Source of the DNA: Schmidtea polychroa
Lineage: Eukaryota
Direction of reading: 5' to 3'
NCBI GenBank assembly: GCA_044892525.1
Contig: CM097887.1
Coordinates: forward strand, 128,194,397-128,258,396
DNA: 64,000 nt
A program made the translations under genes and the position numbers. Below are positions 880 through 45,457 of this stretch, one piece after another; position 1 is the first letter of the stretch, and each line of letters starts with the position of its first letter. The notes beneath the pieces were generated by a model. It saw nothing but the letters and a program-made list of their open reading frames with translations, was not told the DNA's origin and did not search any database.

Positions 880-2406
880 ATTTATTTTTCAGTAAATGTC
901 AGTTTTGTATTTAAAGAAATCTTTGATTGAAAGTAATTGGTTTATAAAAAAAATGAAAAAATTGTATCATTCAATAGAAATTGATAAATTTAATTTATGC
1001 AAATATTTGTTTATTTATAAAAAAATTTGAGAATAACCTTTTATTGAAATTGTAAATAATTACATTGCAAGATCAAGCAGTCACAATTTTGGAAATAGTT
1101 CAATTTCATTTAGAAGAATGTTTTTTGGGGAAAATCCCAAATCAACTAAAAAACCTTTAGAAAAAGTCAAACGTATCTGAAAAAGATTTTTGTTTTACTG
1201 AAACAGAAACTACATTTATTTTTCTAAGTTCTGTTAGCATTTTAAATGCATGAGGAAACATCTATAAATAAACATATTTTCGTTTGTTTTAAATATTAGT
1301 AATTTTCTTGTTTTGTAGGAAAACTTGCAAAATCTGCATTCCGTTTTTCATGAGAAAGGTATCTAAAGAATTTGCTATGTACTTGAAGATATTGTAGTCT
1401 TTTCAGCAAGTAGAAAGTCCATGGGTATAAATTTTTCGAAAATTTGTTATTGAACTTTACGATAAATTGGTATGGGAAACATAATTATAAATAAAATACA
1501 TGCTGAATTTGATCGTAAGAAAAAGAAATCTACTTTGTAATTGATATTGAGACTCAAGTTATGACAAATTGTTGAATTAATTAATTTGTTTTAATTTGAT
1601 ATTGAGATTGATTAAAATGAAATAGTTGTCAAATATCAATTTTCTTTATCCTTCAGTAAAATATTAATTTTTTTATTCACCTATGATCGTTTGCTTTCAC
1701 TATTTAATTTATCTTCTTTATGAAACTTGGTCAGAAATATATTTTCACATGTAACACAAAGAGAGTGTCGAAAAATTAATTTATATAGGAAAGTTAAATT
1801 TTCATCTAAAATGACAAAAAATGAAATTTTTTATCTTTATTTTACATTCTGTGAATTCTGTGAAAGATAAAAGAAATTCATAATTATAATAGTTATGATA
1901 TTTAATTATGATGGGTAATAATTTGGCTTGATGCTTTTAAAAAAAGAAAAATTGTAATAAATAAACAAATGATGGAAACCAAGCGTTTTAAAAATGATCT
2001 GAGTTTAACAATAATAATAGATTAATGGTGAAAAAGAGTTACCTAACATACACCTCATTTCAGTCGATAATATATTTTAAATGTGCCGTGAGAATGTAAC
2101 TATATTAATTAAGTGATTAATTAAATTAACTATTAATATTAGGCAATTTAATAAATAACAAATCAATTAATGAGTTATGTGACTGCATGTAGTTGTTCGA
2201 TGAAGTTGGTTGAATTCCTTATTTTTGTATTACTACATTGAAAAATATTCCTCATAAGATTTCGTTTCGATAATATTATTATTTGAATGATTATTATTTA
2301 TTTATGATTTGATTTTTAACTATGGATACAATAAATACAAAAAGCTAATTAGTGCAAAATCTATATTTATAATTTTATGAGTTATATACAACAGTCATGG
2401 ACATAC

Positions 2407-3375
2407 TGTTGGGTTTTCAGTAAATTTAAGTCGGTAACCTCTGACTCCTTGTGTCCATTAAATCAAAACAATAAACGACCCAACGTATATTGAAATCAAA
2501 AATATATTTTCTCTCAATAATACACAATCAATAATAAATAGTCCAACAGTTCTAGTTTGACCGATTCTCCGCTCGGTGTTGATGCTTTGATAAAGATAAT
2601 ATTCACCTTTTTTTTCCTTAGGTTCTCTTGTCCAACGTTTTCTTTTTTCTCTTTGATTTGATCCTTTTTCACCCTTTCTATTCTTATTTTATCTCTTCTT
2701 TTTCCCTAATCTCCTAATTTCGTTTTTACCTTTTCCTAAGCTCGATCTCTTCTAACTCTAGCTGAGGCAAAATGCCTATTTGCTCTGATTTTCCCATTCC
2801 TTATATACTCTCCGAAATCAGGATGACAAATGATTATTGCCGAGTCAATCTCTCACTTGACATTCGCTTCCACATAATTGCTTTCTACACGCACTATCTT
2901 TTCCTTGCTCAAAATTGATCATTGTGTCAAGCTAATGGGCCCAAATCTTCCGTCTGTTTACTTTTCTTCTTGTTTACCCAGTTCGGGTTTCCTTCATATC
3001 TCGGGTTCTCCATTGGCTCGGGTTTACCATTAGCTCGGGTTTTCTATTAGCCAATTAATTAATTAATTAATATTTTCTGTTTTTACACATTTGAATGCTT
3101 TTCGACCCTTTCTAACCATTTTCTGATAAATCCCTAATCATCATCTTGTTGACCATTAGCTACTCTATTCCCCATTCGATTTCGATGATTCTTCAATTTA
3201 TTGATTTTTCTCGGATTTCCGGATTCTTGCCTTTCGTAACTGCTTTTTGCCATTTCCTAATACTGTTTCCATCGTACTTTCCTTTACTATCAATTCTGTG
3301 CATGATCACGCTTTTATTTGTCTTTTTTCTTCACTTTTTATTTAAATTACCAACCTAAATTTACGGACCTCAACA
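2407..3375 (-). mobile_element. Solo LTR (Ty3/gypsy-type family 1)
   Basis: TGTTGGG...CCTCAACA ends, ATAC duplicated on both flanks (2403-2406, 3376-3379), colinear similarity to 30168-31557. Confidence 0.9.
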
Positions 3376-5311: not shown

Positions 5312-6991
5312 CAGGGCCGGTGCTAGACTTTTTGCTGCCACAGGCAAGATTTGTTTTGCCGCCCTACGGTCTAGTGAAAAAAAGTAAAAAACAGTTTTCT
5401 TATGAACTATAAAACATAAATACTACGAGTAGAAGAACTAAGTACAATAACAAAAACACAGATTTAATTGTTAATTATTCATTTGCAAATACACAACAAA
5501 AAAGCAAATTTTTAATAAATAAAATTACCTTAAACTTTAAATTTTGTTGTTTTATTTCAAATCGATGACCTTTAAACAAATAAAAAAAACTTTTACTTTC
5601 TTTAGCCACTATTAACTAACTTATACAAAATAAATAGTGGTATAGAAAAAATTGGACACCTTAATTTACTAGTCGTTTAATAAAGTTTAAAATTTTCTTC
5701 TTGCTTTTATATTTGCAAAATCTCGTAGTATATCTTTTTTATCTATTGCTCTCGAAATATCATTTTCAATGGACAAAATAGTTAGCCCAGAGAGTCGGTT
5801 TTGTGACATGGATGACCTCAAATAGTTTTTTATTAATTTTAGACGAGAAAAACTCCTTCCGCTAGCAACACTAACTGGCATTGTTAATAATTTTTTTAGT
5901 GCAATATACAAATTTGGATAGATTGGCTCATTCTGCAAAATATATTTCAAAACATCGTTTGGATCATCTGATGGTTTCAGCAAACTTGAAATAAATATTA
6001 ATTCTTCCGACAGTTGAATACCGTCAATGTCTTTTTTATTACCATCGCTCAGTATAATTTCTAAATCCTTCCAATACTTTAAAATATCTTCTTTCTTCCA
6101 TGTAGTTAATTTTGAAATGGAATGTAAGAATCCAAATGTATTTTTATAATGACAGCTGTTGGAAAAGTTACTCCATTGAGTCTAAAAAATAAAAATAAAC
6201 AAGTTTAAATTTTTGTGTTGAATCTTCCATTGGTTCATCAGTGGCTTCGTATTCAAAATTCCGTTTTCGTTTTTTAATTCGAATTTCCTCAAATCTGGGT
6301 TCCAAATCAATCATTTCTGCTAATTCACTAGCAGTAATAAAAAGGTTTTGAAACTCTTCGTCGGTTCTGAACTTTTCAAATTATTAAAAACGGACTCAAT
6401 TGTTTCCACTGCGGCACAAATAGAAAATGTTGGATTCTGCATTAGAAGATTCACTCTATTAACTTCTAATAACACATTGTACCAAAGCACTGCAGTACAA
6501 ATAAATAGATAACTTTTCAATTTTTGGGCCATAATGACAGAGAAAAATTCTGCGTTTTTTACCATTTCAATAATCTTGTTTTTCGACTTTTGAGCTAATA
6601 ATTCTACAAATTCATTTTGAATATCTTTGCTCAGGTAATGTACGTTAGCTTTTTTAGAAGTTATTCGACGTAGGTGTTCTTTTATAACAGGATCGCATAG
6701 ACCAAAGCATTCGACAAACTTTAAGAAAACCCCATTATTATTTTCCTATATCGCATCAGATGACCAACGAAATGATAAATTAAGTTCAGCCATTGTCAAA
6801 ATAATTTGCGTCACTCTTTCAAAAAACGTCACGCCAATGTTGTTTTTCATTCTTCAAAAGCCGTTCATATTCTGCATTGATAGTTTTATTTAATCGTTAA
6901 GCTCGGAACAATCATTAAATGATCTTAAGTGGAAGAATTTTTTATCATGATTATTAATGGCATGGATCAAAATTTTCCAATCATTATAGCC
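5312..6991 (-). mobile_element. Degenerate hAT transposon (ZMYM1-like transposase, internally deleted)
   Basis: CAGGGCCGG terminus at 5312; dimerisation domain LLTMPVSVASG-RSFSRLKLIKNYLRSSMSQNRL; N-terminal part GYNDWK...HYLSKDIQNEF with the catalytic core missing. Confidence 0.85.
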
Positions 6992-7496: not shown

Positions 7497-8253
7497 TCAT
7501 TTCTCACGGTCGGCTTCCGCAAATAAGGCCTCTAAATTGAAAGATTCGGAATCGTTCTCTTTCCAAGTTGTACCAGCAGCTGAGATGATCCGACACTGCA
7601 TCCCAGTGTTCACAGTTGACATGGGAGCAACGCTACTATTCGCCTGCTCAATGGGTGCGACGCGTTTCTGTTCCTTTTCGATAGCTCGCTCCTTCTGCTT
7701 TTTCTTACGCTCTGCTCGAGATAGCTGTCGTCGCTTGGGCTTTGATGATGGATTGGTAGTATAGGATATGCTGGGTGTTGGGACAATTTTGGGCTTCACT
7801 CTACTGGTGCCCGTGAAAACGACTTCATTGGAATTAGGCGAGAGTTCCGCCTCTACACAACCCTTGACAAGACTTCTCCGAGGTTCGAGGTCTATTCGGG
7901 GTTTGGTCATGATGGGTAGGGAACACATTATCTTCCTCGGTTATTGGTATAGTCACGATCTTTCGAGTAATCGACGCCTGTAGGTACACTTTGTGTAGAG
8001 CTTCTGACTGCTCCTTGATGAGAAGCCGCTGCGATCTACTTTCGGCGATTAGACTATCGCGGCAATGTTCGCTCCGGAATAACTTCTTCCAGACCTCTTT
8101 CATTTGAGCAGGGTTGAACCAAATACTCTCTAGTTCCTCAATTTCCCGTTTGAGCGTTTCAACTTGGACTTGAAGACCCTTAATGGCTGTGTTCTTCTCG
8201 GCACATGAGAAGCAAGGCTTGATCAAATTATGAGCATTGGAATTCATGGTCAC
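7497..8253 (-). pseudogene. ORF-X copy A (CxxC + coiled coil + basic NLS protein), one frameshift
   Basis: ORFs 7834..8253 and 7497..7928 join into a homologue of 18847..19611 (KPCFSCAEKN, EHCRDSL, QSEALHKVY, DNVFP). Confidence 0.8.
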
Positions 8254-22096: not shown

Positions 22097-22253
22097 GCTT
22101 TTGGCATTTCCCAATACTGCTTCCATCACACTTTTCTTTGCTATCAATTCTGTGCATGATCACGCTTTTATTTATCTTTTTCTTCACTTACTTTTTATTT
22201 AAATTATTAACCTAAATTTCATTTAAATTTATTTTAATTTACGGACCTCGACA
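22097..22253 (-). repeat. Truncated 3' LTR (first ~157 bp)
   Basis: Begins TGTCGAGGTCC on minus, preceded by purine-rich AAATGGGTAGATA (possible PPT); near-identical to the 5' LTR. Confidence 0.75.
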
Positions 22254-23003
22254 TATCTACCCATTTAAAAAAATATTTCGTCCTTGAAATACATGTTTTT
22301 AGACCTCTTCGAAAATTTACAATATTTTATTTAAGATTTTATTTATTTTAACATCATTTTCCTGATAAAATTTCCGACCGAATCAATTCTTTTTAATTTG
22401 GCTCTAATTATTTCGACCATTTTAATTTGGCTAGTAAATAATAATAATAAATATAAACAATATCAACAAAAATCATAAGCATATGGAAAACAAATGGTTT
22501 GCATTATATTTTATGCAACGTCATAATGAGAAGAAATTTGTTAGAAAAAGAATTCTATATATAAACATTATTTCATGAAAAGTACATCTGCACGAGATCA
22601 GTATCAAATATCAAACGTAATTGATCCGTTCGAAATTTTAGTAAAATATAAATCAGGGTAGTGTTAAATAAAATTTCTAACATTTTCACGAAACATCATA
22701 ATATTAATAATAACTTATTTATCTGTGAATGGACTCGTCGAAAGAAATTGGAAATCTTCAAACCGAATTTAATAAATAATGAATGGCGAATATTAGCTTA
22801 TTGATTCTTTTATTTGCAATAACTGACTTTATATTTATGCCGATAAATATTATGACCAATTAATCTATTTGATGTAACGGGATATTGATTATTATCATAT
22901 TATTATAATATTTATTTTAATAATGATAATTAAAAATTATTACCAATAAGTAAATGAAAATTGAAATTTAAAAAACATTTAAAACTAAATGAATTTGGTT
23001 TAA

Positions 23004-25392
23004 CACTAGGACGGCCGGAAATATTTTATACCTTGGAAGGCCAAACCGGTCAATTTGACCGGTGCACATATGCTCCTTATTTTCATGCTGAGATTTCTAT
23101 GATGCAACTCATTTAGCAATACTTTCTTTGTGCTACTAACACGCTTTCAAAATTTAACTATTTTTATTCTAACAGTAGTTAATTTATTAAACTACTTACA
23201 ACAATGAAATAAAAATATTTGTTTAGCTGACACAAAGCTACACTATTTTAAACATTGTCTTCGCGTTTATTCAGACTGGTATGTATGTATACTTCATTTC
23301 TTGTTTATAAATATTCTCTTGCTTTTATTCAAAGATAGTGCTTATTAAAAGTGTAATTAAGCAAGCATTAAGAGTTCTAAGTTTTGAAATTTGGTAAATT
23401 AAAAGAATCAAACGAAAAACTTAACGAAATGTCATAAGACAATATCTAATAATTGTTATAGAAAATCTTTGAACTTCTTGGGATAACAAACATTATATAA
23501 CCGTGTTTTCATTAGAATTCAATAATAAATTTGACGTTTCTTATTTTACTGACGGAGTTTTTATCATTATTTGATGATGAGCCCGAAAGAAATGATTCTG
23601 ACGAAGAGTTACATGAATGGAACTCTGATGATAATGGAAGTTCGTTAGAAAGTGACAATGAGTCATTCAATAGCTCAATTTCTTCATTAGAAAATCAGCT
23701 TTTATCTAGCAGGGATGGCACTCTTTGGAATCGAGTAGAAAACAATCACGCTATTAGTGTTGGCAGATTCCCTGCGCACAATATTTTTAGTGGAACACCT
23801 GGTTTGAAAGCTTTTGCAAAGCGCTTGATAGTCTCTGAGGGAATGCTGAAGTTAATTCAAAAATACACAATTATGAAAGGAAAAGAAGCTTCGTCAGACT
23901 GGTGTATCAGTCTACAAGAATTAGATGCTTTTCTTGGATTGCTGTATCTCCGTGGTGTGTTAGGCTTTCGCCGACATTCTATCAATTCAATCTGGTCATC
24001 TCAATTTGGATCTCCTTACTTCAGAGAAGTCATGTCTCGGAACCGTTTCCGTGAGATACTGCGCTTTCTTCGTTTTGATGAACAATGTTCTCGACGTCAA
24101 AGAGTAGAACAAGATAAATATGCCCATTTTCGTGAAATATTTGACTTGTTTGTTTCAAACTGTCTTCAAGTTTATACTCCTAATCCCTTCCTTACTGTCG
24201 ATGAGCAACTTTTGCCGCTAAAAAATAGGTGTTGCTTCATCCAATTTATGCCAAATAAGCCTGATAAATTCGGTATCAAATACTGGATTCTCAGTGATGT
24301 CAAAACCAAATTTGTCATCAATCAAATGCCATATTTAGGGGCTCACGATAGAAACGAACGCTGTGGATTACGGCTGGGTGATTTTGTAGTCAGGAAACTA
24401 ATGGAGCCATTTTTCAATAAAGGATACAATGTCTGCACTGACAATTTCTTTACAAGTCTCTCACTAGCTGAACATCTCCTTGTAAATCGAACAACATTGG
24501 TTGGTACTGTAAGATTAAATTCACGCTTTTTATCATCAGCTCACTTGGAGAAAAAGCCTCTTTTTGAATCGACTCATTTATCGTGTCAAAACACTGTCAC
24601 TGTTTCCTATCAAGGCAAATCGGACAAGAAAGTCATTGTCATGTCAACATTCTATTCTACTGCTAGTGTGAGATCTGACGAAAAGAGAAAGCCTGAAATG
24701 ATACACTTTTATAACAAAAATAAGACAGCTGTAGATACCATGGATAGCATGTTGCGTTTATACAGCAGTAAGGCCGCAACAGCAAGATGGCCAGTCGCTA
24801 CTTTCTATGATTTGCTTGATAAAGCAGCTCTCAACGCTCATGTTATTTTCAAAGATGCTACGGGATCAACTATAAAAAGAAGGGATTTTATTTTTGAATT
24901 AGCTACATCTCTCTGTGAGGAGTTCAAAAGCCGTCGAACAGCAAGTCCCATCTCTGGTGAACTCTGTTCTGAACAACCAAAATTAAACAAGCGAAAAACT
25001 TGTTCTGCTCCTCATTGTGATAACAAATCCGGAGCTATATGCCATGTATGTAGTAAAGTTTACTGTGGAAAACATTCCCAAATGACTGTTAAATGCTTCG
25101 GTTGTGTGTAAATTATATTTGGTTTTATATTTTCTAGTATGTAAGATGATTATGTGTGACTTTCTTGTGTGTTTCAAGATACCGGTCAAATTGATCGGTT
25201 CGGCCTTCCATGGGGATGGCCTCATTATCTCAGTCGTGACAAATGCTATAATTGAAGCTTTGATATGCACAACAAGTTCACTAAAAATGAATAATTGTCA
25301 CAAAATATGAGACGTTAATTCCTTTTCGTTTTCTCACAAAATAAAAATGAAATTGCTTAACGGTCAAAATGACCGCTCTGGCCGTCCTAGTG
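23004..25392 (+). mobile_element. Full-length piggyBac transposon
   Basis: 13-bp TIR CACTAGGACGGCC/GGCCGTCCTAGTG, TTAA on both sides (23000-23003, 25393-25396), subterminal CGGTCAA(T/A)TGA(C/T)CG palindromes. Confidence 0.97.
23531..25111 (+). CDS. piggyBac transposase
   Basis: LTVDEQL, CTDNFFTS, VDTMDSM (DDD triad) and C-terminal Cys-rich domain. True start uncertain (TTG; possible splice acceptor at 23514-23515). Confidence 0.95.
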   Translation: MTFLILLTEFLSLFDDEPERNDSDEELHEWNSDDNGSSLESDNESFNSSISSLENQLLSSRDGTLWNRVENNHAISVGRFPAHNIFSGTPGLKAFAKRLIVSEGMLKLIQKYTIMKGKEASSDWCISLQELDAFLGLLYLRGVLGFRRHSINSIWSSQFGSPYFREVMSRNRFREILRFLRFDEQCSRRQRVEQDKYAHFREIFDLFVSNCLQVYTPNPFLTVDEQLLPLKNRCCFIQFMPNKPDKFGIKYWILSDVKTKFVINQMPYLGAHDRNERCGLRLGDFVVRKLMEPFFNKGYNVCTDNFFTSLSLAEHLLVNRTTLVGTVRLNSRFLSSAHLEKKPLFESTHLSCQNTVTVSYQGKSDKKVIVMSTFYSTASVRSDEKRKPEMIHFYNKNKTAVDTMDSMLRLYSSKAATARWPVATFYDLLDKAALNAHVIFKDATGSTIKRRDFIFELATSLCEEFKSRRTASPISGELCSEQPKLNKRKTCSAPHCDNKSGAICHVCSKVYCGKHSQMTVKCFGCV

Positions 25393-26842
25393 TTAATGAT
25401 AAAATTATACTCTTAGAATTTCATGACATTTGGTCTGATTATAAACCCATTCATTGTCGGTGATATATGATTTCGGGAGATATCAAATTAATTTAATGCA
25501 CTTATCGCAGAAAACTGATTTTCAAAGTTGGATAGTCAACTCTTGCTGTTCAATTGGAGCATTTTAGACTGACCAGACACTCTATTCTTGTCCGGATTAT
25601 AATCGTAAGTCAGGCGCAATTGAAAAGCCTATTACTTTATGAAAACGATTCGAATTGGATAAATAAAGTGGTCAATATTTCAACATCAAAACGAAAACCA
25701 ATTATTCTCAAACAAGGTCGAAGTTCCTGGCCGGTAACGAGCAATGGGAAAAATCATAAAAATATGTATGTTATTATTATTAGTTATTAATAGATATTAA
25801 TAGTTAACTTTTAAGTCGAGAAACGTGTCGTGGATTAGCCGGTATTGTGAAAAGGTCAGCCGATCAAAAATTTACTAGTCATGGGGAATTTGTTTCTCGT
25901 CACAGTTCATTCCTTTATCGATCCGATTCGATGATAAGTTGTTCATTAATATTGTAAAAAATTTTTTGATATAACAATCTGTTTCCTCGTGGTTATTATT
26001 TTATTTTTTTTTACATGGATAATAAAATTTTAATTAATACCCAATGATAAAGTATTTAATGCACCGAATGAAGTCTGAAAACTGAATGAGATTTGTATTC
26101 CTATGCTGACAATAGTTTACCGAATTTTGTTACTACAGACCTTATGTCAATCAAATTTTATTTTATAATTATTGAATTAATTTTTTTTAAACTGTTCTGT
26201 AATAGTAGAAAGATTGTCTTCAAATATTTATTCCCTGGCATGCATTTTGTCCATAAATCATGCTTAAATCTTAAAACTACAATATTTTAATTATTAATCT
26301 TCCCATAATTTTTATTATTGATGGAAATATATAATTTTAATTCAATATAACATTTCATTATGATGGGAGGCTATTGGATTTCAATATTTGTTGCTCTATG
26401 ATATTTATCGACGTTTATTGTAGATAACATGTAAGTAAGGCAGCTTGCCCAATAATGATTAAATATTGTAAGAATTTTGAATTAATTGCACATGATTTTT
26501 CTGATTTAGATGGGATATTGGTTTTATATTATTAATTATGTGGTGCTAAAAATATATATGATTTCTAGGGGTATTTATTTTCAATTTTTGATTTTGTATA
26601 CCTTTTTTTTACAATAAAAGCAAATCTTTTATTTCACCTACCCTATATCTGTTAATGATTGCGCTTGCATTTTTCCTAAAATTTTTAGCCGTATTTACAC
26701 TTAGGTATTTTCAACTAATTGAACTTGTTTTCATTTAGTATTTATTATGTAATTCTTAAAGATCTACTTTCTGTTTGTTCACACTATCATATACTATTTC
26801 TCTGCAACTAACTATATATCGAGGGCGCCATGGTACGGACTT

Positions 26843-27178
26843 TTACATAGTCTTTTGTATCAAATTTTCCCATCCGCCATTGTTTGCAATTAACTTCATC
26901 AAATATTTATTCGTCATTTCAGTGGCTTTCTTTATTAATGATTTTGAATTGTCAGTTTCCAAACAAACATAAATACCAATCTCCACTATTATATAGGCTA
27001 GCGCTGTCAATATTTCATCTCAATCCAACGCGGTTCGTGTTAGGTCCTCAATTATTGCTTCCTCACAAAATTCCTTTTCTTCATAATTTCTTTTAATTAT
27101 CCACGGTAATGTCCTCTTTAATTCCGTTGCCAATCTCTTTACAACTCTTTTCTCCTCCTCCGAAGTATCATCTCTTTT
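26843..27178 (-). pseudogene. Bcl-2-family-like domain with one internal TGA
   Basis: Manual translation: ...VVKRLATELKR...EDLTRTALD*DEILTALAYIIVEIG...KYLMKLIANNGGWENLIQKTM*. BH2-like NGGW; TGA (27020-27022) falls where BH1 has the Trp of NWGR. Confidence 0.7.
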
Positions 27179-27197
27179 TTCCAGTTTCGTCTAACAA

Positions 27198-27904
27198 TTA
27201 CAATTCCGTAACTAAACTTTGTAATATTCGCTCAGTTTTGCTTGATTCGTCTAAACTCAAAGATTCAGTTTCCGCATCATTTTGTCGTTTCCGACATATC
27301 GCAATGTCATTTTCCGTTTCAACGAAGTTCTCTTCACTTTTTGTTTTATTTACACTCGGTAATACCCTGTTATCGGTGCTCATTTCCTCGATATCCCTTT
27401 TAGCTTCATTTTCCGATCCCATTTCCTCATTTTCCATTGTTTCTAATCTCTGCAATTCATTAATTTCTTGATCAATTTCTCCTGGGTCATCTACAACTTC
27501 AGTTTTAATCTCTACATTATCATTATACGTTTCCTCATACGGAGGCCAAACGGTATTATTACTGCATCTCTTTCCATTTCATCACTTTGCTTTGTTGCGT
27601 ATACATTATTAATACAATTTGGGTTACATCAGTAATTCAATAAATATTCGTCATCATCTAATTCTCGTGCTTTGAACGTCAACACGATAATTCCTTCATT
27701 GCGTAATATCTCATCTGCTTTTTGTCGTATTTTCTTTGCTTTTACACTCCAATGTTCCTGATAATATTCAATCCTTTGATCCGCAATATTCAACGCTATT
27801 ATCAACGACTTCGCACTATTGTCTAACACCCCATAATCATGTCCTAGTTTTCGGATTACCTTTTTGAGCTTCGCCTGATAGCTTGTCGGTTTATTAGTAT
27901 ACAA
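27198..27904 (-). pseudogene. Helical and acidic linker segments between the UBL and Bcl-2-like domains
   Basis: ORFs 27629..27904 and 27198..27455 on the same strand, separated by stops and frameshifts. Confidence 0.45.
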
Positions 27905-28361
27905 TCAAACAATTCAAACAATCTTCTTTCATTTCTCGATCCATTTCAATGCTCATAATGAAATCGATACTCGCATTAATTTTATCTTTATTCCCTGCAT
28001 ATAGAGTGTCTTGTAAATCTGCTAGAATTTTTTCCCAATTCTGTCTACCTGAATTCAAAGTATTAACTGCATTAACGACATTTACTTTATTTTTCCAGCC
28101 TGGTATCAGACCGCAATCTACCAAGTACTCCTCGTCTTCCAGACATCGATTCTCAAATTTTAATTGCACTTGCCATCCACTGTATTGACGCAGTATTCGC
28201 TCCTTTAGCTCTCTGATTTGTCCGTAGGCATTTGCACGGAATTGGCACATCACATTATCAAGTCCCGTCGTTTCCACTACGATATCAGCTAAATTTCTTG
28301 TTGGCCGTAAAGCCTTGCCAAACTTCTGCATTTGCTTAAGTATCTCATCGTAGCTTTGCAC
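27894..28361 (-). CDS. ORF containing an integral ubiquitin-like domain (nt 28071-28286)
   Basis: IVVETTG...IRELKERI...QVQLKFENRCLEDEEYLVDCGL...VNVV parallels ubiquitin IFVKTLTG...IENVKAKI...[21 protein letters not shown]...LHLV; no terminal GG. Confidence 0.75.
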   Translation of the reverse strand: MQSYDEILKQMQKFGKALRPTRNLADIVVETTGLDNVMCQFRANAYGQIRELKERILRQYSGWQVQLKFENRCLEDEEYLVDCGLIPGWKNKVNVVNAVNTLNSGRQNWEKILADLQDTLYAGNKDKINASIDFIMSIEMDREMKEDCLNCLIVY

Positions 28362-28464
28362 ATAAATTTATTGCTCTCTTTAGTTCACTTTGGGTTAGTG
28401 ACATCAAACTGAGTTCTGCGATCCATCGTTTCAAATGGGAGTTGTTAGTTTCCATTCTCGCAAG

Positions 28465-29851
28465 TCATCTTTCAACTCGGGCTAACAATGCCGTCGGATT
28501 CTCATCTGATGCGATTTTTCTCACTTTCATGGCGGGTTTTTCCTCACCTTCTGACACGGTTCCGATTATCATATGAGATTCAGTTTCCTCGTCTAATTCG
28601 AATTTAGCCAATAATTTGTTCAACTTCTGTCGCATTTCTCGAAATTCCTTTTCCATTTTGTCTTGAAATTCCTCTCTCTGCGCATATGTCATATTACTGG
28701 TATTTGGCATATCTTCTTGGAACCTAATCGATTTCTTTAATATAGGTCTGCTAAATCTTTCTGAGTTACTTGGGCACGATCGAGCCATATGACCGTATCC
28801 CTTGCACGAATGGCATTGTATTTGTCCATTGGTATTCACTTTGTCCCTTTGTGGTGAAGGTGACGTTGACGATGATCTTGATCTGGTGAAACAGTTTCTG
28901 CTAATATGCCTTTTCTTTCCGCATCGATAGCATTCAACATCACTGCTGATCCTTTTGTTATCTTTGAAACTCTTGTTAGGGCTGAGATTTTTCCCATATT
29001 TGAACCAACACTGATTTCAGTAGTGTCCGGACTTTTTGCAATATTCGCACTGAGGGCTATTTACCTGTCCATTTGATTGTACGTTCATGGCTGATCAACT
29101 GGCTTGAAATCTATTATTTGGTCTCAAAATTGGACTACTGATTTGGTTTATTTTCTTTTCATCCCATGGTGCTCTCACAGGAGTAATTGACCGCTCACGT
29201 CTCTCCACATTAACTCCAAAAGCATCTGATCTTTTCGCACTTTTTAAATTCAGCTCTATCTTCATGGCTTTCTTCACAAGCTCATCGAAATTAGAAAAAT
29301 CCACATAACATAGGGCATTTTTGATTTCGGAGTGGACTCCGGTTATAAACTGATCTTCTAACAGCTCTTTAACCTGCTTGGCCATATCTGCTTGATCTGG
29401 TTTGACTTCAAAGGCTTTATCTGCTAAAGTGGTCAGATGATAAGCAAACTCACTGACCGATTCATCTGGACCTTGAACTCGATTATAGAATTTCTGTCGC
29501 ATAATTCTTTTGATATCTCCACAACCAGTTTCAGTGCCATTGCATCCTTCAATTTGATCCAATCATTGCCAACGTTCCGTTTATCGACTTGCTGCCAGGC
29601 TTCTCTTGCCGCACCCTTCAAATAGAGTGGGAATCTCTGAACCTTAATGGCTTGTGTCCATCCGCATGCTGAGGATTATACATATAATAATCTCCCATGA
29701 AATCTGCGAATTCAACAGGGTCTCCTCCATATTGATTGACGGGTATTTTTTGGCAACTTGCGAAATCAATCATCTCTCTATTGATAGGCATAACAGCATT
29801 ATCATTTGCCATTTGGACTTGTTTTTGACTTCTGAGGTTGTATCGATTCAC
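28465..29851 (-). pseudogene. gag: Retrotransposon Gag with three CCHC zinc knuckles, frameshifted
   Basis: GWTQAIKVQRFPLYLKGAAREAW, QGPDESVSEFAYHL, DQFITGV; knuckles CEYCKKSGHY*NQC, CYRCGKKRHISRNC, CHSCKGYGHMARSC. Confidence 0.9.
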
Positions 29852-30142
29852 TTTAAGCTAAACTTCAAACGTTCAACAATAATTCAAAATTACTTTTCAG
29901 CTTCTTTTAAATCTTCCAATAATAGCCTTTAATATCTATCTCGTCAGCACTATTTTCCAAAAATTTTCCACTACGTTCAATAATTCTCAACCGACTTCAC
30001 GTCTATACTCTTTTTCCAAATATTTTTGCAATAACTTTCAATAATTCTCTGCCGACTTTCAATCACGTCGGTATTATTTTCCAAATACTTTTTTTTAATA
30101 ATTTTTTCCCACTAACTTTCAATAATTCTCCGCCGACTTCCT

Positions 30143-30160
30143 ATCACGTCGGGCTCACCA
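30143..30160 (-). promoter_or_regulatory. Primer binding site complementary to the tRNA-Trp 3' end
   Basis: TGGTGAGCCCGACGTGAT, 7 nt after the LTR end. The plus strand ATCACGTCGGGCTCACCA matches the metazoan tRNA-Trp 3' end (ATCACGTCGGGGTCACCA, recalled) at 17/18. Confidence 0.85.
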
Positions 30161-30167
30161 GAATATA

Positions 30168-31557
30168 TGTTGGGTTTTTGGTTAATTTAAGTCGGTTACC
30201 TCTGACTCCTCGTGTCCTTTAAATCAAAACAAACACTACCCAACGTATATTGAAATAACAAAATTCATAATCTTTTCTCACCACTTTACAATCAATAATC
30301 AAAGTTACGTTTGACAGATTCTCCGCTCGGCGTTGATGCTTTGTAAATAGATAATATTCACCTTTTATTTCTTTAGATTCTCTTGACCCACGTTTTCCTC
30401 TTTTTCTGTTTGATTTGATTCTTTTTCACCTTTTCGTATTCCTATTTTCTATATCTTCTTTTCCCTAATCTCCTTAATCCGTTTTTACCTATTCCTAACT
30501 CGGTTTCTTCTAACCCTATGCTCTGATTTTCCCTTTCCTTATATACTCCTCGAAATCGGGATGACAAATGGTTATTGCCGAGTCAATCTTTCACTTGACA
30601 TTTGCTTCCACGTATCGGCTTCGGCTGTCACCCATAATGGCCCAACGAACCAAGATAATAAATGGCCCTTCCGGCCTTTCTACACGCTCTTTTCCAATTA
30701 ATCATTGTGTCAAGCTAATGGGCCCAAATCTTCCTTCTGTTTACTCTTCTTCTTGTTTACCCAGCTCGGGTTTCCTTCATCTCTCTTCATAAAAATGAAA
30801 TGAATAATGAACTAAATAAATTTTTGGACAATAATACTCCAATATTCATTCAATAAGATCCCATTAATAATTACCTAACCCTTCCTAACTCGGTTTCTTC
30901 TAACCCTAGCTGAGGCAAAATGCCGATTTGCTCTGATTTTCCCCTTCCTTATATACTCTTCGAAATCGGGATGACAAATGGTTATTGCCGAGCCAATCTT
31001 TCACTTGACATTTGCTTCCACGTATCTACTTCGGCTGTCACCCATAATGGTCCAACGAACCAAGATAATTAATGGCCCTTCCGGCCTTTCTACACGCACT
31101 ATCTTTTCCTTGCTCTTTTCCAATTAATCATTGTGTCAAGCTAATGGGCCCAAATCTTCCTTCTGTTTACTTTTCTTCTTGTTTACCCAGTTCGGGTTTC
31201 CTTCATCTCTCGGGTTCTCCATTGGCTCGGGTTTACCATTAGCTCTGGTTTTCTATTAGCCAATTAATTAATTAATTAACGTTTTGATTGCTTTGAATGC
31301 TTTTGACCCTTCCTAACCATTTTCTGATAAATCCCTAACCATCATCTTGTTGACCATTAGATAATCTATACCTGTCCCGTTTTCCCAATTCGATTTCGAT
31401 GATTTTACAATTTATTGATTTTTCTCGGATTTCCGGATTCTTGCCTTTCGCAATTGCTTTTGGCATTTTCCAATACTGCTTCCATCACACTTTTCTTTGC
31501 TATCAATTCTGTGTATGATCACGCTTTTATTTATCTTTTTCTTCACTTACTTTTTAT
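30168..31557 (-). repeat. 5' LTR (runs into N gap) with internal ~300-bp duplication
   Basis: Homologous to solo LTR 2407-3375; 30480-30790 is repeated at 30880-31210. Confidence 0.9.
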
Positions 31558-31724
31558 NNNNNNNNNNNNNNNNNNNNNNNNNNNNNNNNNNNNNNNNNNN
31601 NNNNNNNNNNNNNNNNNNNNNNNNNNNNNNNNNNNNNNNNNNNNNNNNNNNNNNNNNNNNNNNNNNNNNNNNNNNNNNNNNNNNNNNNNNNNNNNNNNNN
31701 NNNNNNNNNNNNNNNNNNNNNNNN
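31558..31724. other. Assembly gap
   Basis: N run. Confidence 1.
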
Positions 31725-35762: not shown

Positions 35763-36498
35763 TTATAATTTATTTTTTAAATTGTTAAAATAAATTAAAA
35801 ATTTCAAATGTTTGAATGCTTCATCGTACCTCAAGTTTAAAATGCTTTCTGATACATTTTTTAAAATATCATTAAATTTTTGATCAATTTCATTTGATAG
35901 AATTTCTTTATTTTTATCGTTTTTGACTTCAACAATCCGTTCGTTATAGTCAATCATTTCATCGAAAAACGCAGGATCAATTGTAATATCTCCTTCATCC
36001 AATTTATAACCTTTTAAAGTAAGTATATAAATAGCTCTTAATAATGGATATTTCAAAGTATTATATGCTTCATTTACGACGGCAGATGATTCTTCAGATA
36101 AATTTTTTTCAAACTAAAACGACAATGTAAAGGGTTAATATTATTAAATCGCAAAAAATTACGTCACTAAATTTAGAATATTTATCAGGATGTAGATCTC
36201 GTTGAAATTGCTTCCATCGTTTATTAATAAAATTTAAATCGATGTCAAATTCGTTTTCAGGAATTCCAAACATGTCAAAATATGTACATTGATGACTCGG
36301 TTTTTGGATTTTGCCACATTTACAAAAAAACATACATTTACATAAACTTTCATTACAATTCCAACATTTTCGTGTTAAATTTTGACAATCATGAATGTAA
36401 GCTTGCAGATGTAACCTATTCAGTAGAGCATTTTTATAAGACGAATTGCTTAGAAAATCATACAAGTGTTTATTTAACGATGAAAAGACTTTTCGCAT
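35763..36498 (-). CDS. HSCB: Fe-S cluster co-chaperone HscB/HSC20, 2 exons (36498-36163, 36113-35763), ~228 aa
   Basis: CWNC...FFCKCGKIQ, J-domain LHPDKY; a 49-nt GT-AG intron (36114-36162) restores the frame into SAVVNEAYNTLKYPLLRAIY. Confidence 0.93.
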
Positions 36499-36882
36499 TT
36501 AAAATTAAATTTAATAACATAAATTCTTTTCAAAATCGTAAAAGAATATGCATTATTAAAACAAGAGATTTGAACATTTTAAAAATTAATTAATTATTAT
36601 AAATTTAGTTTAGAATTTAATTTTAATATTAATTTCTAATTATAGGTAAACATAATATTTTTAAAATACGATTTATAAGAGAAAGTAAGATTATCAATTG
36701 CATATTTTAAATCCTTCTAGATCGATAATTTTAATCGGCCTAAGGAATGGCTACTGTAAAATTTTATTTAGATAGAACACACAGAGTTTCTGTTAGAAAA
36801 AATAATGGCTGTCTTTGATTGGATAACGTATATTTATACATTGTGATCAAAATATTTTCAGAATTATAATCAGATTTTTATA

Positions 36883-38109
36883 ATGAAACGAGTAAAAAGC
36901 TGCTCGACTTTGAGACTAAAAGTTCATCAGCTATTGAATGAAGAAGAGAGAGAAATTGTTAAATACGCCATAAGAATTTATCGAAAAAATCAGTCTATCG
37001 ATGCTCTATGTGATATATTATCAAAAATTATTACAGATGCTAATCGGAGTTGTTTGGTCACTTTAATAGCAGATATGCTTAAGGATGAACAAAGGTCTCA
37101 ATTTCTTAACAGGTGTTACATGAAAATGCCGGGCTATAGTGTTTCTCAGCAGCAATTATCAAGACCGGAATTATCACATTCGAATAGTGAATATAAATCA
37201 AATACATTTTCATTGCGAGTAGCAACTTTTGTGTCTAAAAATAAATCTAATCAATCAAAAAGTAACTTAAATCTTGTGAAACAAAATTCAAAATATGATG
37301 ATAATGATTCCACATTAAAAAGTGCAATGAACCGTGACAAAAAATATTCCAATGAATCGAATAATAATGATACATTCAAACGTTCTGATTCTGAAGAACT
37401 TTTAAAGACAATTGAAAAGTGCACAATAAAAGAACGCCCAAGACTTTCAAATTTGCAGGATAAAGGATTTTGGAAAATTAACAGTGACAGTCAAACTGAT
37501 AATGATTCCATTCACAGTTCATCGTCTTCGAATGATAAATCACAACCGAAAGAACTATTGAATGGTGAAAAACCATCAATATCAATTCCACAGAATAAAG
37601 AAACGCCTCGGTTTTGTTCAAATAAAAAATATTCCAATGTTGGGTTTCCAAACGGTAAAGAGGTTAAAAAGAATCATTTCAATAAGAATACTAGACAGCA
37701 TTCAAATCCAAATCCAAAGGTTATGGTTTGTAAACTTCATTTTAGTTCGGTTAATGATGTTGAAGATACTGAAGAAAGCGTCAATGAAATTCCTATGCAT
37801 TTGCGTTCATTGGCAACAGTTTTCTATAATGTAAATTCCTCCGACAATTTTTTTGTTCAATATCAACCAGAAATACCCAACTACATGTATCCTAGCAATT
37901 ATAAGGCTATTGAACAATTTAGGTGCAAATCTATAGATGAGAACATAAATATCTTAACGTCTAATAATACTCTCCGTCAAAGTGATTCCAATCCAGTTTT
38001 AACCAGCTTGCATTCTGAAGAAATTTCTCACAGAGTTTCCACAGATGAGGGATGTCAAACAAATCCTATTAAAACATGTGATACCGGTACACAAACATTT
38101 CTGGCTTAA
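36883..38109 (+). CDS. 408-aa protein with an N-terminal harmonin-N-like domain and a low-complexity tail
   Basis: KVHQLLNEEEREIVKYAIRIYRKNQSIDALCDILSKII...LVTLIADML resembles the harmonin/whirlin/delphilin N domain. Confidence 0.7.
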   Translation: MKRVKSCSTLRLKVHQLLNEEEREIVKYAIRIYRKNQSIDALCDILSKIITDANRSCLVTLIADMLKDEQRSQFLNRCYMKMPGYSVSQQQLSRPELSHSNSEYKSNTFSLRVATFVSKNKSNQSKSNLNLVKQNSKYDDNDSTLKSAMNRDKKYSNESNNNDTFKRSDSEELLKTIEKCTIKERPRLSNLQDKGFWKINSDSQTDNDSIHSSSSSNDKSQPKELLNGEKPSISIPQNKETPRFCSNKKYSNVGFPNGKEVKKNHFNKNTRQHSNPNPKVMVCKLHFSSVNDVEDTEESVNEIPMHLRSLATVFYNVNSSDNFFVQYQPEIPNYMYPSNYKAIEQFRCKSIDENINILTSNNTLRQSDSNPVLTSLHSEEISHRVSTDEGCQTNPIKTCDTGTQTFLA

Positions 38110-44727: not shown

Positions 44728-45457
44728 TGTTGTGTTTTTAATTAGATAAGTGGGAACGTCGGTGTTTCTGAGTCCACGTGTTCTGTAAAAACAATTAGCT
44801 AAACAACACAAGGTATATTTGTTATCAAATTCTTATAAACTATAATTTAAAAAACTCCGAATATCGCAATAAAATGCCTATTCTGACTTCGATAAGTTTC
44901 ACTGTAACTGCTCTGCTTCTGCACGTTCTGCAACAATAATCGGCTTTTATATTTTTATGACTTAACTTGATTCTTTAATTTCCCTTTCCACTAATTCTAT
45001 CTTTTATCTTTAATTTTTTCTTTTTTAACTCTACCGTGGATTTCTTCTTCCCTACCTAATGCAAAATGCCTATTGTTTCTGAATTAGAGCTCCATTATAT
45101 AATTGAAATAATCGCCTTGATTAATGGTATTTCAACTAGATCGTCTACTTTCGACAAGCTTTGCCTCGCGACCTTTTTCATATTTTCTCCTTCGAAAGAA
45201 ATAATTAATTGTCCCACCGTCTTTCTTGATTAGTTAATTAATTAATTAACTATTTTCTGTTTTTGTACGTTTTCTTGCATTTCGACCTTTTCTGAATATA
45301 TTTTGATGAATCTGTTATCGTCATGATATTTACAATCATCTTATTTGCAATTGACCCGTTTTTCAAATTTTATTTCGATAATTTGATGATCTCTTGATTT
45401 TGAATTTTCCAATATTCCATTTTTAATTAGATCATTTTATATTTAACAACCCCAACA
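44728..45457 (-). mobile_element. Diverged LTR related to family 1
   Basis: TGTTGTG...CCCCAACA; shares GCAAAATGCCTAT and the TTAATTAATTAA-TATTTTCTGTTTT core; no TSD. Confidence 0.6.

What the first reader, a model, noticed from the sequence alone, without database searches (positions are those of the whole stretch)
28071..28286. Ubiquitin-like domain downstream of Gag
The beta-grasp pattern with LKF...LEDEEYLVDCGL is clear, with no C-terminal GG, so it is probably non-conjugatable. Ubiquitin captures are known in pestiviruses and baculoviruses. UBL plus apoptosis-regulator pairing recalls BAG1-type architecture (analogy only).
Basis: partly seen in the sequence, partly recalled or inferred. 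Interest (0 to 1): 0.7.

Follow-up and report, generated by a model that had tools for sequence, protein, structure and literature searches.

The report
Paired ubiquitin-like domains in planarian retroelement
The stretch encodes a real ubiquitin-like domain, the first of two, in a broken copy of an abundant retrovirus-like jumping gene of what is likely a planarian; it lacks the tail that ubiquitin needs to be attached to proteins, likely serves as a binding module, and domains of this kind were already reported for these elements.

Summary

It lies in a dead, internally deleted copy of a Burro-type gypsy LTR element. Other copies read Gag, two [helical bundle + UBL] units, Bcl-2-like, Env and Pol as one 3334-aa frame (continuous from Gag to Env in 19 of 40 Env-selected copies). 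The domain is under purifying selection (piN/piS 0.15). No unit has a C-terminal GG (0 of 15), so conjugation and pestivirus-type cleavage are unlikely. No BAG domain was found.

A 2019 review already names a Ubi2/SUMO-like domain before BCL-2 in Burro. Not found in the papers I could read: the repeating unit is a four-helix bundle plus UBL, single in some families and doubled in others. The bundle weakly resembles the LEDGF integrase-binding (TND) domain (E 0.07; inconclusive). The scan had noted Burro, and a separate BEL/Pao ubiquitin capture, on other DNA of this genome.

The parts
30168..31557 (-). 5' LTR, with an internal repeat of about 410 nt; it runs up to a masked stretch at 31558
   Evidence: blastn to the LTRs of a long-frame copy, 79-90%; repeat families D2/D3
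30143..30160 (-). primer-binding-site-like 18-mer just inside the LTR; the tRNA was not identified
   Evidence: position next to the LTR end; the function is inferred
28504..29857 (-). gag (capsid-like part and three CCHC knuckles), broken by frame changes and stops
   Evidence: Retrotrans_gag E 5e-4 and zf-CCHC E 1.7e-7; tblastn pieces at 89-97% to a long-frame copy
28295..28503 (-). helical bundle 1 (four helices, about 75 aa), broken near 28350; ends approximate
28056..28298 (-). ubiquitin-like domain 1 (the finding), free of stops, no GG
27814..28052 (-). helical bundle 2, paralogous to bundle 1, frame change near 27900; ends approximate
   Evidence: hhalign bundle 1 vs 2 score 25.2, 0 of 60 column shuffles as high; alignment A4
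27575..27817 (-). ubiquitin-like domain 2, one stop in this copy, no GG
   Evidence: PF00240 E 0.084 in copy L031
27183..27551 (-). acidic linker
26849..27181 (-). Bcl-2-like domain, broken; the match to the polyprotein ends here (no env or pol in this copy)
   Evidence: PF00452 E 0.006 in L031, 1.7e-4 in family B, 1.9e-5 in family E, all under the cut-off
26795..26855 (-). short piece of the element's 3' non-coding region, joined to the Bcl-2-like end (internal deletion, inferred)
   Evidence: 85% over 61 nt
22097..22299 (-). remnant of the 3' end: about 100 nt before the 3' LTR plus its first 102 nt
   Evidence: 84% to the same junction of a long-frame copy; 100 of 102 nt identical to the 5' LTR start

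Best explanation
This is a diverged ubiquitin-like domain with no GG tail, the first of two helix-bundle-plus-ubiquitin-like units between Gag and a Bcl-2-like domain in the single polyprotein of a Burro-type gypsy LTR element, where it likely acts as a non-conjugated protein-binding module; the copy in the window is dead. Shown: fold, position, one frame from Gag to Pol in other copies, duplication, purifying selection, and no GG. Inferred: the units stay on the cytosolic side with Gag and the Bcl-2-like domain, because the first long hydrophobic segment comes after Bcl-2 and would double as its anchor and as the Env signal. The element's own protease would free them. The bundle and UBL would then work as one rigid unit (pTM 0.84) that binds a host protein through the conserved acidic DDDE(Y/F)L..G face rather than the ubiquitin I44 patch. 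The partner is most likely in ubiquitin or cell-death control, like the neighbouring Bcl-2-like cargo and Burro1's IAP, TRAF and MATH cargo. Identity is about 0.95 sure; the binding-module role about 0.5; the partner is unknown.
For: Fold. One frame: (Gag, zf-CCHC, ubiquitin, Bcl-2, Monjiviricetes fusion E 6e-93, then PR, RT, RNase H, IN); 18 of 150 scored copies have open frames of 3000 aa or more; 19 of 40 Env-selected copies read knuckle-UBL-UBL-BH2-Env start without a stop, and 31 of 40 have knuckle and UBL in one frame. Selection: piN/piS 0.15 (95% CI 0.08-0.35) for UBL1 and 0.28 (0.13-0.65) for UBL2, against 0.14 for the knuckles and 0.17 for Env. Kept across families with 50-85% RT identity and in unnamed outside proteins. 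GG absent in 0 of 15 units; ubiquitin R42 kept in none; position 44 is K or R in all 4 unit-1 rows. Hydrophobic segments at residues 1030-1055 and 1594-1625. Published architecture: PMC6431247 section 7.
Against: No single copy reaches the PF00240 cut-off. No partner, cleavage or expression was shown. Helical bundle 1 alone has piN/piS 0.55 with a CI reaching 1.7. The 40 copies were chosen for good Env scores, which favours young copies. Links to Burro1's own UBL candidates are weak (E 0.04, 0.01, 0.0075; probability 1-5%). The single-sequence model was poor (pLDDT 40). The cell-death role is borrowed from neighbours and from Burro1's IAP, which I know only from a citing paper.
Confidence: 0.75

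Rival explanations
1. The helical bundle is a captured TND/LEDGF-IBD-like domain. The unit would then bind the element's integrase or host transcription-elongation factors and help steer integration or expression, with the UBL as its partner domain.
For: A profile of 14 bundles returns the LEDGF/PSIP1 integrase-binding domain in its first 11 PDB rows, E 0.068-0.12. Against a host TND/IBD profile: score 17.4, 0 of 100 column shuffles as high, reversed control 12.5. Host TND L217 scores 21.4, 0 of 25 shuffles. The model has helix lengths of a similar kind.
Against: None of these is significant: hhalign probability 4%, E 0.01. No TND or LEDGF family is among the 25 of 28 Pfam families shown for the 14 members. 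The host LEDGF-like sequence was matched by 2 of 25 shuffles, 3 other host TNDs by 1 to 6 of 25, and the best shuffle for L217 came within 0.5 of it. No TND locus was in the top ten of 1290 background frames. Own-genome searches with PF11467 and PF08711 returned 3 and 26 places, not hundreds of element copies.
Confidence: 0.15
2. The UBLs are folding or turnover tags. A single frame would give equal amounts of Gag, Env and Pol, and the UBLs would set the half-life of pieces of the polyprotein through the proteasome, or help it fold.
For: One continuous frame. Proteasome-linked UBLs (RAD23, Dsk2, ubiquilin, FAT10, midnolin) are among the fold matches.
Against: Those matches are tied with all other ubiquitin folds. 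The I44/R42 surface that proteasome receptors read (recalled) is not kept in unit 1. A conserved helical partner domain is not needed for a tag.
Confidence: 0.15
3. A pestivirus-type processing signal: host ubiquitin hydrolases cut the polyprotein after the UBL.
For: It is a ubiquitin-derived insert inside a virus-like polyprotein. A separate BEL/Pao-like family in this genome does keep LRGG in its captured ubiquitin.
Against: No GG in 15 of 15 units, nor within 45 residues after 6 of 6 cores. Identity to ubiquitin is 18%. The element has its own aspartic protease.
Confidence: 0.04
4. A neutral passenger or spacer with no function beyond keeping the frame open.
For: The domain diverges fast between families (43-49% over the aligned core, against 82-85% for RT). 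A deletion variant lacking unit 1's UBL exists among copies (L143).
Against: piN/piS is 0.15 within the family. The fold and the DDDE(Y/F)L..G motif are kept across families at 50% RT identity.
Confidence: 0.05

Closest known systems
Burro / GYPSM1 giant gypsy-like LTR elements of planarians (Jurka 2007 and Grohme et al. 2018, as described in PMC6431247 section 7; originals not seen)
   Same: One polyprotein Gag-(accessory)-BCL2-Env-PR-RT-RH-IN with Env in frame between gag and pol; three CCHC knuckles; a ubiquitin/SUMO-like domain just before BCL-2. RT-RNase H is 50% and Env 33-39% identical to the BIR-bearing Burro1-like element fetched here.
   Different: This family is about 17.8 kb with a 3334-aa frame and has no MATH, ankyrin or BIR hit in its polyprotein. 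It has two bundle+UBL units in tandem; the review names one Ubi2/SUMO-like domain. Whether it is Burro2, 3 or 4 could not be tested.
Type II (integral, non-conjugated) ubiquitin-like domains such as those of ubiquilin, RAD23, BAG1 and BAG6
   Same: Beta-grasp fold at rmsd 1.5-2.5 A, no GG, part of a larger protein.
   Different: No UBA or BAG domain. Each UBL follows a four-helix bundle. The I44 patch is not kept in unit 1.
ISG15 / FAT10 / OASL di-ubiquitin-like proteins; NEDD8
   Same: Best profile hits (ISG15 C-terminal domain i-E 8e-5; NEDD8 E 4e-4); two UBLs in a row.
   Different: The two UBLs are separated by an 80-aa helical bundle and have no GG. ISG15 is vertebrate (recalled), so the hit shows the fold and not the donor. 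NEDD8-like is the best of 8 host sequences tested (24.9 bits vs 13.4 for ubiquitin), yet pairwise identity is 13 of 74 to both.
Captured ubiquitin in pestivirus polyproteins and baculovirus v-ubi (recalled); BEL/Pao-like Ub-Ub-Gag family of this genome
   Same: Ubiquitin-derived coding sequence fused into a virus-like polyprotein.
   Different: Those are near-identical to ubiquitin and keep GG. This one is old, diverged and GG-less.

Membership tests
Ubiquitin-like (beta-grasp) superfamily | beta-beta-alpha-beta-beta-beta fold superposable on ubiquitin | tested here: met
Ubiquitin-like (beta-grasp) superfamily | sequence profile similarity to ubiquitin-family proteins | tested here: met
   element-only profiles hit ISG15, NEDD8 and ubiquitin; hhalign E 1e-4 to host Ub-like alignment
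Pfam PF00240 ubiquitin | score above the curated cut-off of 25.4 bits | tested here: not met
   12.6-20 bits
Conjugatable (type I) ubiquitin-like modifiers | C-terminal di-glycine after the fold | tested here: not met
   0 of 15 units; 0 of 6 within 45 residues
Burro-type gypsy LTR elements | Env in frame between Gag and Pol in one polyprotein | tested here: met
   3334-aa frame at this place; met by sister copies, not by the window copy
Burro-type gypsy LTR elements | BCL2-like domain before Env; retrotrans_gag plus CCHC knuckles | tested here: met
   PF00452 E 0.006 to 2e-5, under the cut-off; Gag E 3e-9; three knuckles
Burro-type gypsy LTR elements | gypsy order PR-RT-RH-IN, LTRs, kinship with Burro1 | tested here: met
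   LTR pair of 1058 nt, 99.7%; RT-RH 50% to the Burro1-like element vs 41% to another gypsy
Burro1 itself | MATH and ankyrin in a 4873-aa ORF1, BIR-RING accessory gene | tested here: not met
   no such hits in the 3334-aa polyprotein; they are present in a different family
Burro2, Burro3 or Burro4 | identity to the published reference sequences | not testable with these tools
   reference sequences and Grohme et al. 2018 not available
BAG1-type proteins | BAG domain joined to the UBL | tested here: not met
   no PF02179 hit in the polyprotein at E<=5; the genome search found one BAG place only
TND / LEDGF integrase-binding domain (for the helical bundle) | sequence or fold similarity to TND domains | tested here: inconclusive
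   top PDB rows but E 0.07; mixed shuffle tests; the fold searches were filled by the UBL half
TND / LEDGF integrase-binding domain (for the helical bundle) | binds integrase or TND-interacting motifs | not tested
   no complex prediction was obtained

The most novel reading that the evidence does not exclude
Burro-type elements carry their own copy of a LEDGF-like integrase-binding (TND) domain fused to a ubiquitin-like domain, single in some families and doubled in others. This would be a retroelement that encodes the kind of chromatin tether that lentiviruses borrow from the host, and uses it to steer integration or to decoy transcription-elongation factors.
Probability: 0.15. Interest if true: 0.75.

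Novelty: new member of a known kind. Interest (0 to 1): 0.33.

Why it matters
Burro elements are abundant, and one of their captured genes (B-IAP of Burro1) is reported to protect planarian stem cells (known here only through PMC13465017). Defining the linker between Gag and Bcl-2 as a conserved, selected, duplicated bundle+UBL unit turns a one-line annotation into a small, foldable protein that can be tested for host partners. The window copy itself is dead and matters only as a pointer. If the bundle proved to be LEDGF-like, it would bear on how these elements choose integration sites.

Tried and rejected
Pfam and PDB searches with the window frame alone: nothing. Word-seeded protein searches: no relatives, weak evidence by the tool's own statement. 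Single-sequence AlphaFold: pLDDT 40, not used. Atlas searches: a ubiquitin cluster at 0.90 for UBL1 and nothing for unit 2; leads only. First selection estimate: set aside because the copies were picked by likeness to UBL1; replaced by pairwise counts on Env-selected copies. HOIL-1L LTM+UBL resemblance: 5y3t_A aligns over 139 columns but at rmsd 15.7 A; not supported. Expression: no RNA holder listed; the contigs laid show presence only. Fold of the helical bundle: not tested, which the UBL half filled; the viral fold library was not searched, and no complex prediction of bundle with integrase was obtained. Host donor: only 8 host Ub-like sequences were scored, so no donor is assigned. Papers: searches found no description of a doubled helix+UBL unit. 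Lee et al. 2026, Grohme et al. 2018 and Jurka 2007 could not be read, nor Fig. 2A of the review; they or their supplements may already show it.

Full report
Observation. On its own it is barely recognisable. There is no Pfam or PDB hit for the whole frame, and PF00240 scores E 0.089 for 28071-28286. Upstream lie broken gag pieces with Retrotrans_gag and zf-CCHC hits.

The element. The window lies in a 781-Mb genome with four large contigs. The frame has at least 150 relatives there at 86-92% identity (150 scored of 1183 candidates), 18 of them in open frames of 3000 aa or more and 7 of exactly 3334 aa. One such copy, read in two separate stretches, gives Gag, three knuckles, ubiquitin (E 6e-4), Bcl-2 (E 0.018), a Monjiviricetes-type fusion protein (E 6e-93), then protease, RT, RNase H and integrase. 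Its LTRs are 1058 nt and 99.7% identical, about 17.8 kb apart end to end. This is the Burro architecture of planarians. Section 7 of PMC6431247 (read whole) describes Env in frame between gag and pol, BCL2-like motifs in Burro-2 to -4, and a 'Ubi2/SUMO-like (PF11976)' domain between MATH and BCL-2. A BIR search recovered the Burro1-like family with MATH, ankyrin and a 393-aa BIR-RING gene; its RT-RNase H is 50% identical to ours. The host is therefore inferred to be a planarian, likely Schmidtea mediterranea. Which Burro number this family bears could not be tested.

The window copy is dead. It aligns to the polyprotein in 7 pieces with 6 frame changes and 7 stops, and the match ends at 26849 after the Bcl-2-like domain. 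A 61-nt piece of the 3' region follows. A remnant of the 3' LTR start lies at 22097-22299, 100 of 102 nt identical to the 5' LTR start, with a piggyBac-like transposase frame in between. So env and pol are lost, by inference through an internal deletion. The UBL1 stretch itself has no stop but is out of frame with gag here.

A repeated unit. A second UBL follows, and the helical stretch before each UBL is also paralogous (score 25.2, 0 of 60 shuffles). Two sister families with 3419- and 3437-aa frames carry both units. Families picked by Bcl-2 alone carry one unit (E 1e-13 to 1e-7), and another fragment turned up in L071. A tree groups the first units of the three doubled families (98/97), so the duplication likely predates their split; the tool warns of long branches. 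Of 150 proteins listed from 1.84 billion representatives I read 14. Nine look like the same unit by eye, two with Gag features (weak Pfam hits); all nine are unnamed singletons. The nine other hits that I scanned are multi-ubiquitin proteins. The Burro1-like polyprotein has three candidate UBLs, matched only weakly.

Function. Among 40 copies taken from the 68 Env-bearing places scored, UBL1 is present in 37; 31 have knuckle and UBL in one frame and 19 run from knuckle to Env start. Pairwise piN/piS is 0.15 (0.08-0.35) for UBL1 and 0.28 for UBL2, against 0.14 for the knuckles, 0.17 for Env, 0.43 for Bcl-2 and 0.55 (not distinguishable from 1) for bundle 1. The sample favours young copies. The first long hydrophobic segment comes after the Bcl-2-like domain, so the units would stay cytosolic. 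My best reading is a non-conjugated binding module, likely freed by the element's protease and acting on a host partner in ubiquitin or cell-death control. Cleavage, expression and partner are all untested. Passages of PMC13465017 report, citing Lee et al. 2026 (not seen), that Burro1's IAP protects stem cells; that is context, not evidence for this domain. Passages of PMC8532177 show Burro1 transcripts under PIWI control.

The open lead. A profile of 14 helical bundles put the LEDGF integrase-binding domain in its first 11 PDB rows, at E 0.07-0.12 only. Tests against host TND and LEDGF-like sequences were mixed. In favour: 0 of 100 column shuffles reached the profile score, and 0 of 25 reached the score of one host TND. 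Against: probability 4%, 1 to 6 of 25 shuffles reached the other four sequences, there was no TND family among the Pfam hits shown, and no TND locus in the background top ten. Passages of PMC13175633 confirm that LEDGF's domain is a TND that binds elongation factors. I leave this at about 0.15.

Verdict. A ubiquitin-like domain in Burro polyproteins is in print. The doubled bundle+UBL unit was not found in searches, but three primary sources and the review's figure could not be seen. Interest 0.33.

Noticed in passing
L057-L069, L072, L074, L076, L116, L121-L123 (G000, many places): A BEL/Pao-like family (DUF1759 Gag) carries one or two near-canonical ubiquitins in frame before Gag, preceded by varying host-gene fragments (Ras/Rab-like, proteasome subunit, TCP-1, EAP30, and by eye a dual-specificity phosphatase). 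It fills most of the 150 PF00240 rows. Earlier scan notes report the same family.
   Followed up: partly
L105:5707-5949, 6223-6510, 7687-7920: The Burro1-like polyprotein appears to hold three UBL-like stretches, two before and one after MATH; the review names one. Support is weak.
   Followed up: partly
window 23516-25111 (+): Uninterrupted 531-aa piggyBac-like transposase frame (PF13843 E 1e-68), lying inside the 3' part of the dead LTR element.
   Followed up: no
window 2404-3362 and 45234-45401: Older LTR-like pieces of the same kind, 77% and 71% identical to the long-frame copy's LTR.
   Followed up: no
window 35763-36498 (-) and 36847-38109 (+): Likely host genes head to head: an HSCB co-chaperone (HSCB_C E 1e-6) and a frame with a weak harmonin N-terminal hit (E 0.09).
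   Followed up: no
L032:3690-4827: After the integrase the polyprotein continues for about 380 aa between two hydrophobic segments, with no Pfam hit; possibly a second membrane or secreted protein.
   Followed up: no
G000:C4 89.9-90.8 Mb; G000:C2 164-172.5 Mb: Arrays of near-identical genes: 7 Bcl-2 matches on C4 and about a dozen TND-bearing frames on C2.
   Followed up: no
L120:4180-5771: A run of five diverged ubiquitin-like repeats with stops between some of them, perhaps exons or a decayed polyubiquitin-like gene.
   Followed up: no
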